A DNA stretch of 64,000 nt from assembly GCA_036785375.1 (NCBI GenBank), contig JAWMAR010000201.1, forward strand, positions 310,001-374,000. Reading direction: 5' to 3'. The stretch comes from Leucoraja ocellata. Its lineage: Eukaryota. The first letter of the stretch is position 1. Each line of letters begins with the position of its first letter. A program made the position numbers and the translations under genes. The notes beneath the pieces are model-generated. The model searched no databases. It was not told where the DNA came from and saw only the letters and a program-made list of their open reading frames with translations. Shown here in pieces: positions 34,049-38,727 of the stretch.

Positions 34049-37000
34049 ATTTTACTTCGGAGTCACGTGAGTGACTACGTGAAGAAGCCCGCTTCCACGC
34101 ATGCGTGTCATATCGCTACACGCATTGCAACGAGTCACACAGGGGGAACGGCGTTCCCCAAGCGGGAGATTTGAAAGTCGGGAACAGCAGGTAAGAGACT
34201 CTGCGTTCCTTTTTACTACTTACTTTTAGGAGGCTGCGGAAAGCTGGCGGGGAGACCCGTGGAGGGCGAGCAGCCAGCAGCAGCAACAGCACGAGTTTCC
34301 CTGGAGGGGAACAACCTGAGCCCGACTTTGCTCCCGCACCGGCAAAATTCACCTCTCGGCCGGGCGGGAAGCAAAGTAAAAAAGGTCCCTATGCCAGTCT
34401 CAAACGAGACTGGCTTGGGACCAGTCGCTAGCAGCCAGCACAGAGGCTGCGGGACAGACAGCTCGGACCAGCGGTACCGGGGCTCGAAACGCTCAGCGAG
34501 TGCAGCGGCACTTATGGAGTCGGAACGGGACGTTCGGGCTGAAAACCTTGTTCACAAGGTAAGCACCAGGGTCCAGGGGATCTATAGGAACAGCCGGGGT
34601 TACCGGCTGCGGAACTGCCGCGAAGGACCAGGCCCGTGAACACCGGGGTCGGTCCAAGCGGCTCGAACCCGACACAGGGAACGACGGTCACCGGCGGGAG
34701 AAGGAAAGTCGGGAACAGCAGGTAAGAGACCCTGCGTTTCCTTCAACTTACCTTTCTAGGTGCAGACATGGACCAGGTCCATGTAAGGTGCAGAAGGCCG
34801 GCGGGAGAACCGCGGAGGAGCGGCAGCAGCAGCGGCAGCGGCAGCAGCAGTGGCAGCCGGCAGTTTGCAGTAGCACAGACAGCAGCAGTGGCAGCTGGCA
34901 CTTCGTGAGGAGCTGGCAACGGCAGGAGCAGCATGGGCACATCGATTCCCGGAGGGGGAAAAACACCTGTGCCCAACTTCGCTCCAGCACGGTGAGAAAG
35001 TTCATTTCTCGGCAGCAAAGGACTTTGCAGTTGACTGGCTGCAATCTACTACAAGGGACCAGTATGTGAGTACCAGGATCGGTCCCAGCGGGGTTTTAGT
35101 TACAATAATCGCTTCTCGGCTTTTTGGCTAAGATCAAGTGTAGTATCTGTTCTTATCAGTTTAATATCTGATACACCCCTTATCTAGGGACTATATATAT
35201 TATATAAAAACTATAGTAGCTGTTATCATCAGTTTTAATGTCTTATATGTCCCTTATCTAAGGACCATATAAGTAGGAGTGCCCAGAATTGAGGGCATTA
35301 GAGTGGGGTTGACCGGCTGCAACGACCATAAGGGACCAGTACCGTCAGTACGGGGGTGGGTCCCAGGGGTCTAAGATAAAGGAGCAGCCAGGAGTGCTGA
35401 GAGCGTTGAAGTCAGGTTAAAGGAATAGATGGAAGCAGCTGTGCCAGTTATCCTCCACACCGGCCATATCCACTTCACGGAAGGAAGGACAACACTGGAG
35501 AAGGAGGACCATGGAACAGCGGGCAGCCAGCAGCAGCCAGCGGCTCTTGGATCAACCGTAGTGGGATCAGCTGTGCCCGATGTCGGCCCCGCACCGGCCA
35601 GATCCATGTGACCGAGCGGTAGGCTAGACACAAATAAAACAAGGTAGTGGACTCGGAAGGGTCCGACTTTGCATAAAACCGCCGGAAACCAGTGCCCGAG
35701 AGGGCTGGAGCGGGAAGAAGCGGTGTATGGAGCCTTGCTCCAACGTGATAAAACCACAGCAGTACCTCTTTGAGGGCTGCACAATGCTTTTACCCCATCA
35801 GAGGGGAGCACTGTGGGTCAGTTCTGGGCTGACCTGCAAGAGGGGTCCGCAGAACAAAAGACAAGTGGGCAGCAGTTTAGCCCCACATGGATACCCCGTG
35901 TGGGACCCTAGAGATCTCTAACTCTATAAAAAAGAGTAGGCAGGACCCTGATGGGCCAGAGCCTGGTAATACAGCGTCCCATGATCCTAACACAGCAGGG
36001 ACTCTGCTGGACATGGTGGCCGATTACTTTAGCCAAGTCAAACATGGGTAGACTTGGATCCAGGATGGCAATAGTATTACTATATGTCTGGCCACAAACG
36101 CCAACAAGAAAAAATTTACAGACACTGGCCAGACATCTGCCACCTGGCAACGGTGAGGCATTACAGGTGCCCAGTGTAAACCAATGCATTTGGCAGCATA
36201 TGGACGAACATCAGGAACCAGGACCTCAAGATCCAGAGAACTTTCAAGGGATTGACGGAAGGCATCATAGCACACACCAGCACCCTGGACTAAACGTAGG
36301 TAACCAAAGACCATCAAGACGCACTAGATCTGTTTAATAATATGCAATATAACCTGAACTACACGTGGAAGGCGGCCATTCAGCCAGCACTAGGACCCCA
36401 AAAATGCTACCATTTGCAAATAAAAACCGTGTGTGGACTAAGCCAAGACACTGGGGCTCATCAAGGCCAGCGCAAGGGCCTATTTTGGAGCATGATACCA
36501 TCCACAGGCAAGGCCATAAAAAATGTGGCTCATACCAGTAGCAGTGTCAGAAATCAATATAACCTGCAGGATCCGTTTTAGGGTATGGCCAGGGCGGCCA
36601 CCCTGGAAGATGCGGAAGCCTCAACCTCCCACACAACCCCGAACAAGAAATATTAAACCAGAACCTTATTTTCAAAAAACCAAGGAAATAACAAAACCAC
36701 CGGTAACCAGGGAGGTAGGTGGGTGGGGTTTTCTTCTGTTAAAATAGGGACCTACGAGGGTAGGGGAGGTTGCAACACTACAGTTATGTATGGTATATAA
36801 TCACTACAGATTCATATAATCTCAGCAGTATTCAGGGTTATCTGATAGGGTTTTTCTCATCCCATTAACCACAGTACATCATACACCAGAAGGGCATTTT
36901 GTCCTTACATAAACCAAACAATCTAAAACCCACATGGTGCTACAAGAATTGTACACAAAAGATGGGATTGAACATATTATTAAATATAAGATAGAGTAGG

Positions 37001-38727
37001 GTTGCAGGATTATCATTGATTTTAACCCTAAACACATTTGTTTTAGATATTCATTTTAAGATGGATGCTCTTATTATTGATATAGACTTGGTGTCAGTTG
37101 TGGGTTTCTATATGGCAGGCATTGACTCAATAGAGGAACTTTGGCAATATAGAGCTTACATAAGGGGCAATCATTAGCCCCATTATTATGTACTAAAATT
37201 CGTAAACCAGCTTGGCATTGTTATGTAAATAAGCCATAGGGTGAGGTTTTCCCCCGTTCGGACCCATCATTGGGGTACTAGGGATAATTCAACCACACTC
37301 GGCATCTGGAATTTTCAGAGTACCCGACTGACCTTCTCAATCATGGTATTTCAGTCTTACAGGGGATGGTGTTAGAACCATGTTCCCTATGAACATTGCC
37401 AAAAAATTATTGATTTATCCAGTGACTGGAGGCAGTCATCCATGCCATAACACTATGGATTTATTGATTTGTAGAGTCTAACAGACCCACTACACTGTCA
37501 GACAGGACGATGAATCTCATCTCATCTGCACTAAGACTGTCAACACGGAAGCAGTACCTTGGACACATCAAGAAATGGGGCATATACTGCTTGGACAACA
37601 ATCTCGACCAAAAGGCCAAGAACATTCTGGCCGTATTGGAATTTTTACAAGCCTCCATTAGGATAATCGATGGAGCTACATTGCCTTCAATAGTGCCACA
37701 AGTGCGCTCTCCAATTACCTATCACAAGGAACGGAGCGGCACGCGGTGGAAACGCACCCCTGGTAAGAAAACCAGGTACTCCGAAATCTGGGACGTGGGT
37801 GTCGTTTCTCAACATGCTGAGGAGCCTGTAGCTCATAACAGCGTTGTCACTTCAGTAACAGTCCAGGAAGATGGTTATGCTCATGGTGTTATTTACCGCA
37901 CAACAAGTCCAGCCATTAAGCAAACTGAGCCTGGACTCCCTGATCATCTCACCGAGAAACTGGTGTTGTCATACAGGATTTAATAAAAGAAAACAGATCG
38001 GGTTCCTCGGGTCAAGTGTTTGAATTTATGGTACACCCATATGGTAAACGACTGTATAGCAAGACACATCTAACAATACATAGAATATACTAAGAACATT
38101 CGAGGTCAGAGAATGGAGTTGTTTATCTCTTACAAGAAACCGCATGAAAGGGTCATGACTCAAACTATATCATTGTATTAAGAAAACATTTTATGTTCAA
38201 CAAAATAATTTGCCCGAAAGGTTACAGGGCTATGATTCTCAAATTTTTTAAAAATGTTATATATTTTTTCGTTATACCACACAACTCTTTGTATAATTGT
38301 GTTTAAAATTACTAATGATGCTCTCTCCCAATACCCAAGGCAGTTTGTGAAGCATGGACTCGTTCCACGGCATGAGGTCACAGAGCTTTGAAATCTTCAC
38401 GTAGTCACTCACGTGACTCCGAAGTAAAATAGTAAGATTAAACGAGAACTTACCAGTTTGAAGTTTGATCTGTATTTTATGAGGAGTTACGATGAGGGAT
38501 TACGTGCCCTCCGCTCCCACCCTCTTATGATCATATCAAAAACTGGTATCTCTTTGGTAATCTTACTATGTTAGATCATTATAGGTTCCTGTGACCTCAC
38601 ACCGCTGCTTTGAAGTATGACACGCATGCGTGGAAGCGGGCTTCTTCACGTAATCCCTCATCGTAACTCCTCATAAAATACAGATCAAACTTCAAACTGG
38701 TAAGTTCTCGTTTAATCTTACTATTTT
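34049..38727 (+). mobile_element. Complete-ended DIRS1-type tyrosine-recombinase retrotransposon with decayed coding core
   Basis: Left ITR from 34050; right ITR ~38616-38652 plus extension to 38727; ICR 38394-38506 is the exact reverse complement of both termini joined; ATTTT at both junctions. gag, RT and YR remnants (STRKQYLGHIKKW..VLEFL, RYSEIWDV). Confidence 0.93.
35108..35203 (+). pseudogene. RNU2: 3'-truncated U2 snRNA copy inside the DIRS element, followed by a second degenerate partial copy (~35211-35270)
   Basis: ATCGCTTCTCGGCTTTTTGGCTAAGATCAAGTGTAGTATCTGTTCTTATCAGTTTAATATCTGATAC differs at one position from vertebrate U2 nt 1-67 as I recall it. Stem IIb retained; Sm site and 3' domain absent. 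Confidence 0.95.

What the first reader, a model, noticed from the sequence alone, without database searches (positions are those of the whole stretch)
35108..35270. U2 snRNA 5' domain carried inside a DIRS retrotransposon
Seen: a near-perfect U2 5' domain starting exactly at nt 1, in sense orientation, including the branch-pairing GTAGTA and stems IIa/IIb, ending before the Sm site. A second degenerate copy of the GTAGTA-stem II part follows; no TSD is evident; it sits between duplicated DIRS segments. Known: this U2 region pairs with branch sites and U6 and contains the target site of U2-specific retroelements; snRNA chimeras are known mainly for LINEs. Inference: if shared by other copies, this is an snRNA-carrying tyrosine-recombinase retroelement. 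It might decoy splicing factors or pair with U6 (speculative); otherwise it is a one-off retrocopy.
Basis: partly seen in the sequence, partly recalled or inferred. Interest (0 to 1): 0.72.

Follow-up and report, generated by a model that had tools for sequence, protein, structure and literature searches.

The report
Jumping gene captured U2 RNA twice
A large family of protein-dead jumping genes carries the front half of the U2 splicing RNA, picked up on two separate occasions, likely by slips of the copying enzyme, and the piece decays as fast as its surroundings, so it is probably a passenger rather than a tool.

Summary
Confirmed and family-wide. A 4.68-kb non-autonomous DIRS1-like element (34049-38725) carries U2 nt 1-96 (35108-35205), three extra A, then a decayed U2 nt 29-90 (35209-35271). 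The genome holds 272 exact copies of this junction and 843 across subfamilies. Relatives preserve the history: empty site (L174, L177); one blunt U2 1-90 insert identical to host U2 (L229); stepwise decay that loses the branch-pairing GTAGTA; then a second capture of fresh host U2, which brings nt 91-96 found in no single-copy element. The second piece is thus the older insert, not a duplicate. Both pieces start at +1 and stop before the Sm site, like known U2 decay fragments. Neither changes more slowly than its flanks, and U2-less members transposed too, so decoy or U6-pairing roles are unsupported. Two other DIRS copies hold sense U1 and U6atac pieces. Best reading (0.6): template switching onto co-packaged snRNA fragments, then neutral hitch-hiking. 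Three paper searches found no DIRS-snRNA report; this scan noted the same kind in another genome (e1-8592903).

The parts
34049..38725 (+). Whole non-autonomous DIRS1-like element, 4677 nt, ATT at both ends, no target-site duplication
   Evidence: 20 of 20 fetched copies align end to end at 97.8-99.9% with unrelated flanks (L068 in two pieces); ITR/ICR pairs
34049..34112 (+). Left inverted terminal repeat
   Evidence: Complementary to 38394-38430 (37 nt, 100%) and to 38616-38660 (45 nt, 96%)
34191..34229 (+). Short GT-AG intron-like motif (a second copy at 34722-34759); use as an intron not shown
   Evidence: Sequence, repeat D7; the same motif precedes gag in 5 of 5 coding-type DIRS viewed; one contig of a run only guessed to be RNA leaves the element at this donor (weak)
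35026..35091 (+). Upstream copy of a duplicated DIRS module that predates the U2 insert
   Evidence: Both module copies are present in the empty-site elements L174 and L177
35108..35205 (+). Second (younger) capture: host U2 nt 1-96
   Evidence: 87/91 to host U2 here; 96/96 in L133; includes nt 91-96, absent from single-copy elements
35206..35208 (+). Three A not templated by U2 or by the older copy
   Evidence: Alignments of two-copy elements
35209..35271 (+). Remainder of the first (older) capture: U2 nt 29-90, decayed
   Evidence: Shares derived bases G31C, G33A, T39G, G63T, C67T, G80A with late single-copy elements L195 and L196
35292..35366 (+). Downstream copy of the duplicated module
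35488..36654 (+). Broken gag-like remnant (several frames)
   Evidence: tblastn with ORF1 of L109, 28-61% identity, E 4e-34
36764..37212 (+). Short broken remnant of the RT-bearing ORF
   Evidence: tblastn with pol of L101 (Pfam RVT_1), about 30% identity, E 5e-11
37495..38196 (+). Broken tyrosine-recombinase remnant with stops
   Evidence: tblastn with YR of L109 (PF00589), 28% identity, E 1e-21; stops in translation; no Pfam hit on its own
38394..38506 (+). Internal complementary region with the AAT circle junction at 38428-38430
   Evidence: 100% complementary to both ends (I8, I2)
38616..38725 (+). Right inverted terminal repeat and right extension
   Evidence: the 81-nt end core is 99-100% identical in coding-type elements L110, L111, L112, L115

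Best explanation
A protein-dead DIRS1-like retrotransposon family took up the 5' part of host U2 snRNA twice, likely by template switching of the helper's reverse transcriptase onto a co-packaged U2 decay fragment, and has carried it since as a probably neutral passenger. Shown: (1) U2 nt 1-90 went bluntly into the leader; (2) that copy decayed along successive subfamilies; (3) fresh U2 nt 1-96 plus AAA then replaced nt 1-28 of the old copy; (4) the two-piece form spread to hundreds of sites. Inferred: the donor was RNA cut before the Sm site; the first jump was non-homologous; the second was guided back by the old copy's matching 5' end; coding DIRS with the same termini supply the enzymes.
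For: Family-wide: 40 of 40 scored hits 100% over 501 nt; 272 and 843 junction counts, reversed-pattern control 0. Empty site: 2 of 7 pattern hits are family members joined without U2. Pristine first state: L229 90/90 to host; ordered decay series. Recapture: nt 91-96 in two-copy elements only, absent from all 25 single-copy elements and the 28 displayed (the sets overlap); the old remainder shares six derived bases with L195 and L196. [quoted passage not shown] MLV selectively packages pre-U2 from the cytoplasm (PMC4378196, passages); retroviral RT patches host RNA into its genome by template switching (PMC4997597, passages). No TSD or tail at capture 1, whereas the one lone genomic U2 retrocopy seen has an A-rich tail (L220, 1 of 30). 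Neutrality: non-CpG changes 24/82 in old U2 against 54/186 in flanks, p=1; 6/43 in fresh nt 24-67 against 40/259, p=1. Recurrence: U1 nt 43-127 (L321, ends at the Sm site, replaces about 80 nt of gag relative to L110) and a U6atac-like piece (L316) lie sense inside two other DIRS, 2 of 58 loci sampled; across 78 loci, 2 in 366 kb of DIRS against 0 in 379 kb outside.
Against: No direct evidence on which reverse transcriptase did it. The AAA at the second junction also fits LINE priming. The 2-versus-0 enrichment is not significant, and the U6atac hit is only 2.4 bits over its cut-off; neither piece was counted genome-wide. None of 30 loci (of 68) with an exact U1 5' end lay inside a DIRS. Rate tests have low power for a few sites: GTAGTA is intact in 25 of 25 fresh copies (about 0.9 change expected), shared changes in nt 24-67 are 1/43 against 17/259 (p=0.5), and 22 of 47 rows were dropped for flank deletions or short loci. 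Subfamilies are mosaic, which weakens tree-based counts. Packaging evidence is from mammalian retroviruses and vesicles, not DIRS. No read data cover the U2 piece.
Confidence: 0.6

Rival explanations
1. LINE machinery (L1, CR1-like or the U2-targeting Keno type) or RNA-templated break repair wrote U2 fragments into genomic DIRS copies, which then became masters; the piece is still a passenger.
For: A tailed lone U2 retrocopy ending at the same nt 90 exists (L220). Three A at junction 2. Tailless and A-tailed snRNA retrocopies are known LINE products (PMC4494074, passages). Keno-like neighbours of U2 fragments occur in this genome. About 10,000 DIRS copies give a large target (20,062 matches of a motif present twice per element).
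Against: No TSD at either event; no tail at event 1. Event 2 landed inside a 90-nt old copy and ended at the same +1 junction, which random insertion does not explain. Host U2 3' parts next to foreign DNA begin at nt 38 (L151, L152, L274), not at nt 29. Only 1 of 30 loci ending at nt 90 lay outside DIRS.
Confidence: 0.25
2. The U2 piece helps the element: an intact U2 5' domain would route the RNA into helper particles or hold back splicing of its leader, so the recapture that restored it was favoured.
For: Two-piece forms are the most numerous (753 matches of the old-copy motif, nearly all two-copy among those inspected). GTAGTA intact in 25 of 25 fresh copies. About 843 U2 junctions against 968 copies of the family's 3' motif. 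Pre-U2 is selectively packaged by MLV.
Against: Rates equal flanks. Single-copy lineages multiplied after losing GTAGTA (20 of 23). Stem I is destroyed by T-run growth in descendants; nt 1-24 are deleted and T27C is fixed in other subfamilies. No special pairing of U2 nt 29-46 with the element's own leader (-13.9 kcal/mol; 21 of 30 shuffles as good). U2-less members transposed; 0 of 20 coding-type elements hold U2. Young families dominate exact-match counts for age alone.
Confidence: 0.12
3. One capture followed by an internal tandem duplication (the natural reading of the window alone).
For: Two overlapping U2 pieces in tandem.
Against: The front copy carries U2 nt 91-96, which no single-copy element has, and matches host U2 96/96 in L133, while the rear copy carries the derived bases of late single-copy elements.
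Confidence: 0.03

Closest known systems
DIRS1-like tyrosine-recombinase retrotransposons (PMC3266345, passages and part of Table 3)
   Same: ITRs, split ICR with 3-nt circle junction, right extension, ATT ends, no TSD, gag-pol-YR order
   Different: All three ORFs broken; carries snRNA pieces; the word snRNA does not occur in that paper's main text
SINEU of crocodilians (PMC4494074, passages)
   Same: U1/U2-derived sequence in a multi-copy retroelement, with recurrent addition by template switch
   Different: SINEU are short poly(A)-tailed non-LTR elements with the snRNA as 5' head, moved by Tx1; here the piece is internal, about 1.06 kb into a 4.7-kb YR element
Host-RNA packaging and patch repair in retroviruses (PMC4997597, PMC4378196, passages)
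   Same: Pre-U2 and other surveillance substrates packaged; host RNA patched in by template switching
   Different: Known from virions and experiments; here a germ-line fossil series with a repeat capture in a non-viral YR element; packaging by DIRS not shown
Tailless and chimeric snRNA retropseudogenes made by LINEs (as summarised in PMC4494074; PMC4476161 seen only as listing and abstract start)
   Same: RNA-derived, +1 start, 3' truncation
   Different: Those are single events with TSDs or LINE tails; this has none and was amplified about 850-fold by its carrier
Cassandra, Helenus and Ajax TRIMs (PMC10886601, passages)
   Same: Non-autonomous retroelements with a small-RNA-derived piece
   Different: Their tRNA/5S pieces sit in LTRs and are conserved as Pol III promoters; U2 has no internal promoter (recalled) and shows no conservation here
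Keno and Utopia (PMC4640811, passages)
   Same: Retroelement next to U2 sequence
   Different: They insert into U2 genes; here U2 RNA is inside the element and the copies are dispersed at unrelated sites

Membership tests
DIRS1-like retrotransposon | Inverted terminal repeats | tested here: met
   34068-34112 / 38616-38660, 96%
DIRS1-like retrotransposon | Split ICR complementary to both ends, overlapping at a 3-nt circle junction | tested here: met
   38394-38506, 100%, AAT junction
DIRS1-like retrotransposon | Trinucleotide ends, no TSD | tested here: met
   Flanks of 20 full copies: unrelated flanks, ATT-type ends with occasional change of the last base
DIRS1-like retrotransposon | gag, RT/RNase H and YR coding regions | tested here: inconclusive
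   Present in order as broken remnants only; longest + strand open frame 171-244 aa in 19 of 20 copies evaluated. Filed as a non-autonomous derivative; relatives with 85-100% identical ends encode RVT_1 and Phage_integrase
DIRS1-like retrotransposon | Circular DNA intermediate | not testable with these tools
   Needs extrachromosomal circle sequencing
Functional U2 snRNA gene | Sm site, stems III-IV, snRNA promoter and 3' box | tested here: not met
   Ends at nt 96; no similarity to host U2 flanks
SINEU | snRNA head at the 5' end, poly(A) tail, non-LTR mobilisation | tested here: not met
   Internal position, DIRS termini, no tail
LINE-made snRNA retropseudogene | TSD and/or poly(A) tail or LINE 3' end | tested here: inconclusive
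   Capture 1: none (against 66); capture 2: three A, no TSD. Blunt LINE events cannot be excluded
Keno/Utopia insertion in a U2 gene | Element flanked by the 5' and 3' halves of a U2 gene | tested here: not met
   No U2 sequence beyond nt 96 and no U2 gene flanks in the element
TRIMp3 (Cassandra-like) | Small-RNA piece in LTRs, conserved as a Pol III promoter | tested here: not met
   No LTRs; piece not conserved

The most novel reading that the evidence does not exclude
The captured U2 5' domain is a stolen routing signal: because retroelement particles favour immature U2, a leader that looks like U2 gets the protein-dead RNA into helper particles more often, which is why a decayed copy was replaced by a fresh one and the refreshed form took over the family.
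Probability: 0.12. Interest if true: 0.82.

Novelty: new variant of a known kind. Interest (0 to 1): 0.5.

Why it matters
It extends snRNA capture from LINEs, SINEs and retroviruses to tyrosine-recombinase retrotransposons, whose replication is known mostly from a model. A complete series (empty, pristine, decaying, recaptured) in one genome is rare, and it predicts something testable: DIRS particles hold spliceosomal RNA decay fragments, and their reverse transcriptase jumps onto them. In practice, about 850 false U2 loci would mislead snRNA annotation and read mapping in this genome. It does not point to a new splicing regulator.

Tried and rejected
Slower change in single-copy U2 (p=2e-5) was an artefact of two rows with flank deletions (L181, L192) and a non-homologous downstream block; after dropping these rows and trimming to 142 columns the difference vanished. 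My early idea that the flanking module duplication was made by the insertion was rejected by L174 and L177. A third U2 capture was sought among 20 loci with odd spacing; all were T-run or TA-repeat variants, or deletions, of the same event. A backbone tree to order the subfamilies failed through mosaicism. Pfam found nothing in 5 ORFs of the element. The pattern also admitted true U2 genes, so its count (964) is not used. Expression: no RNA holder listed; four contig sets laid on the leader 5' of the piece gave patchy cover and no intron-shaped joint; this is no evidence either way, and no read data cover the U2 piece itself. Cis pairing with the element's branch-site-like TACTAC motifs was no better than shuffles. 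Paper searches for DIRS with snRNA listed 4, 15 and 0 papers, none on this by title or abstract start; subscription papers, Repbase entries and supplements were not seen and may hold a mention. PMC5798949 (U2 truncated forms) was not held; only its title was seen, in a reference list.

Full report
Observation. Rfam finds one hit in the window, U2 at 35108-35215, 103.7 bits. The host's U2 genes (48 scored; 20 read, all with the same 191 nt) give the reference. The front piece is U2 nt 1-91 at 87/91 and runs on to nt 96; three A follow; the rear piece (35209-35271) is U2 nt 29-90 at 53/63 columns. Nothing upstream of the piece resembles the U2 gene's flank, so it begins at the RNA's first base. 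The genome is 3.44 Gb; a cartilaginous fish is my inference from its repeats (recalled) and from earlier notes, not tested.

Carrier. Inverted repeats define a DIRS1-like element at 34049-38725: left ITR, ICR at 38394-38506 with an AAT junction, right ITR and extension, matching the definition in PMC3266345 (passages). gag, pol and recombinase survive only as broken remnants. Twenty of 20 fetched copies are full length at 97.8-99.9% with unrelated flanks, so the family was copied recently without its own enzymes. Coding-type DIRS with RT and recombinase exist; four of 20 share the 81-nt end core at 99-100% and are plausible helpers (inference). None of the 20 holds U2. A motif present twice per element matches 20,062 times, so there are roughly 10,000 DIRS copies.

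How common. All 40 scored hits to a 501-nt query across the piece are 100% identical. The exact junction occurs 272 times and a degenerate form 843 times, controls 0; a 3' motif of the family occurs 968 times. Of 20 copies chosen for lacking the exact junction, 9 have two U2 pieces, 5 have one and 6 have none.

History. A loose end suggested the sequence of an unfilled site; 2 of 7 genome matches (L174, L177) are family members in which the two flanks join directly and both copies of the flanking module are already there. The first insert, nt 1-90, is therefore blunt, without duplication or tail. L229 holds it 90/90 identical to host U2. Other single-copy elements form a ladder of added changes, ending in L195 and L196. 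The window's rear piece carries six derived bases of that last step. The front piece cannot come from the element: it has host nt 91-96, seen in no single-copy element (25, 28 displayed, overlapping sets), it is 96/96 host-identical in L133, and it lacks the old copy's changes in nt 10-20. Fresh U2 thus replaced old nt 1-28 and ended at the same +1 junction. Twenty loci with odd spacing showed no third event.

Is it under selection? In 23 single-copy elements, non-CpG parsimony changes are 24/82 sites in U2 and 54/186 in flanks (p=1; L181 and L192 dropped; an earlier apparent deficit came from them). The branch-pairing hexamer is intact in 3 of 23. In two-copy elements the fresh nt 24-67 show 6/43 against 40/259 (p=1; 25 of 47 rows kept); one search gave 15/96 against 40/212 (18 of 23 rows). 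Against neutrality: the hexamer is intact in 25 of 25 fresh copies and shared changes are few there (1/43 against 17/259), neither significant. Stem I is destroyed in descendants of the window's subfamily, and nt 1-24 are deleted in another. No special pairing with the element's leader was found.

Mechanism. Shown: two uptakes of host U2 sequence, order, junctions, spread. Inferred: an RNA donor, because both pieces start at +1 and stop before the Sm site, where U2 5' fragments are reported to end (PMC12745716, passages). Inferred: the helper's reverse transcriptase jumped from element RNA to the fragment and back. MLV packages pre-U2 from the cytoplasm (PMC4378196, passages) and retroviral RT patches host RNA into its genome (PMC4997597, passages). 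The second event must have been guided by homology, which template switching gives simply. The LINE route stays open: one tailed U2 retrocopy ending at nt 90 lies outside DIRS (1 of 30), and the AAA fits priming.

Is it a habit? None of 30 loci with an exact U1 5' end (68 in all; motif recalled) is inside a DIRS. Among 58 DIRS loci from contig C1 outside this family, one has U1 nt 43-127 (83.5%, sense, ending at the Sm site, in place of about 80 nt of gag) and one has a U6atac-like piece (35.4 bits, cut-off 33, sense). Over 78 loci that is 2 in 366 kb of DIRS and 0 in 379 kb outside: suggestive, not significant.

Expression. No RNA holder is on record; 20 runs under two organism labels (some unlabelled) hold part of the element. 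Contigs laid on the leader are patchy. Nothing is concluded.

Known and new. The nearest cases are SINEU (PMC4494074, passages), LINE-made snRNA retrocopies, TRIMs with small-RNA promoters (PMC10886601, passages) and U2-targeting Keno and Utopia (PMC4640811, passages); the piece fails the defining tests of SINEU, TRIMp3 and Keno/Utopia, and the LINE test is inconclusive. Searches found no report of snRNA in DIRS; Repbase, subscription papers and supplements were not seen. Verdict: real, a new variant of a known kind, probably a passenger; interest 0.5.

Noticed in passing
L321:3648-3732 (G000:C1, - strand): U1 nt 43-127, sense, inside a different 4.66-kb DIRS, ending at the Sm site and replacing about 80 nt of gag relative to L110. 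Copy number unknown.
   Followed up: partly
L316:1380-1474 (+): Decayed U6atac-like piece, sense, inside a DIRS related to L307 and L309, which lack it.
   Followed up: partly
L254, L267, L271 (from 1501): U1 genes with their normal upstream flank break off at nt 32, 50 and 44 into the same RT-bearing non-LTR element (92-99.5% alike). Could be a U1-array-targeting LINE or deletions into a neighbour; PMC4640811 names only Dada-U1 for U1. L263 breaks at nt 33 into another RT.
   Followed up: partly
L251, L252, L253, L272, L274, L275 (about 1716-1916): U2 5' scraps (within nt 3-55) followed, in the four loci viewed, by a shared element, 50-250 nt downstream of U1 genes; L274 also has U2 nt 38-81. 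Looks Keno-like (recalled; ORF not tested).
   Followed up: partly
L151, L152: U2 3' part starting at nt 38 behind unrelated repeat DNA, as expected at the 3' junction of a U2-targeting element.
   Followed up: no
L220 (G000:C16:11008606, -): Lone old U2 5' retrocopy ending at nt 90 with an A-rich tail, outside DIRS: the same break point as capture 1.
   Followed up: partly
window 34191-34229 and 34722-34759; L101, L108, L109, L111, L114: A 32-53-nt GT-AG motif just after a TATA-like box and before the gag ATG in 5 of 5 coding-type DIRS viewed; very short for a vertebrate intron (recalled).
   Followed up: partly
L130, L057, L062: Mosaic and nested copies: L130 has a single-copy leader on a window-type backbone; L057 sits in a relative's recombinase region and L062 abuts another element's start.
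   Followed up: no
window 35054-35086 and 35333-35364: The duplicated module holds a GGGACC...GGTCCC inverted repeat; no Rfam match; partly deleted in one subfamily.
   Followed up: no
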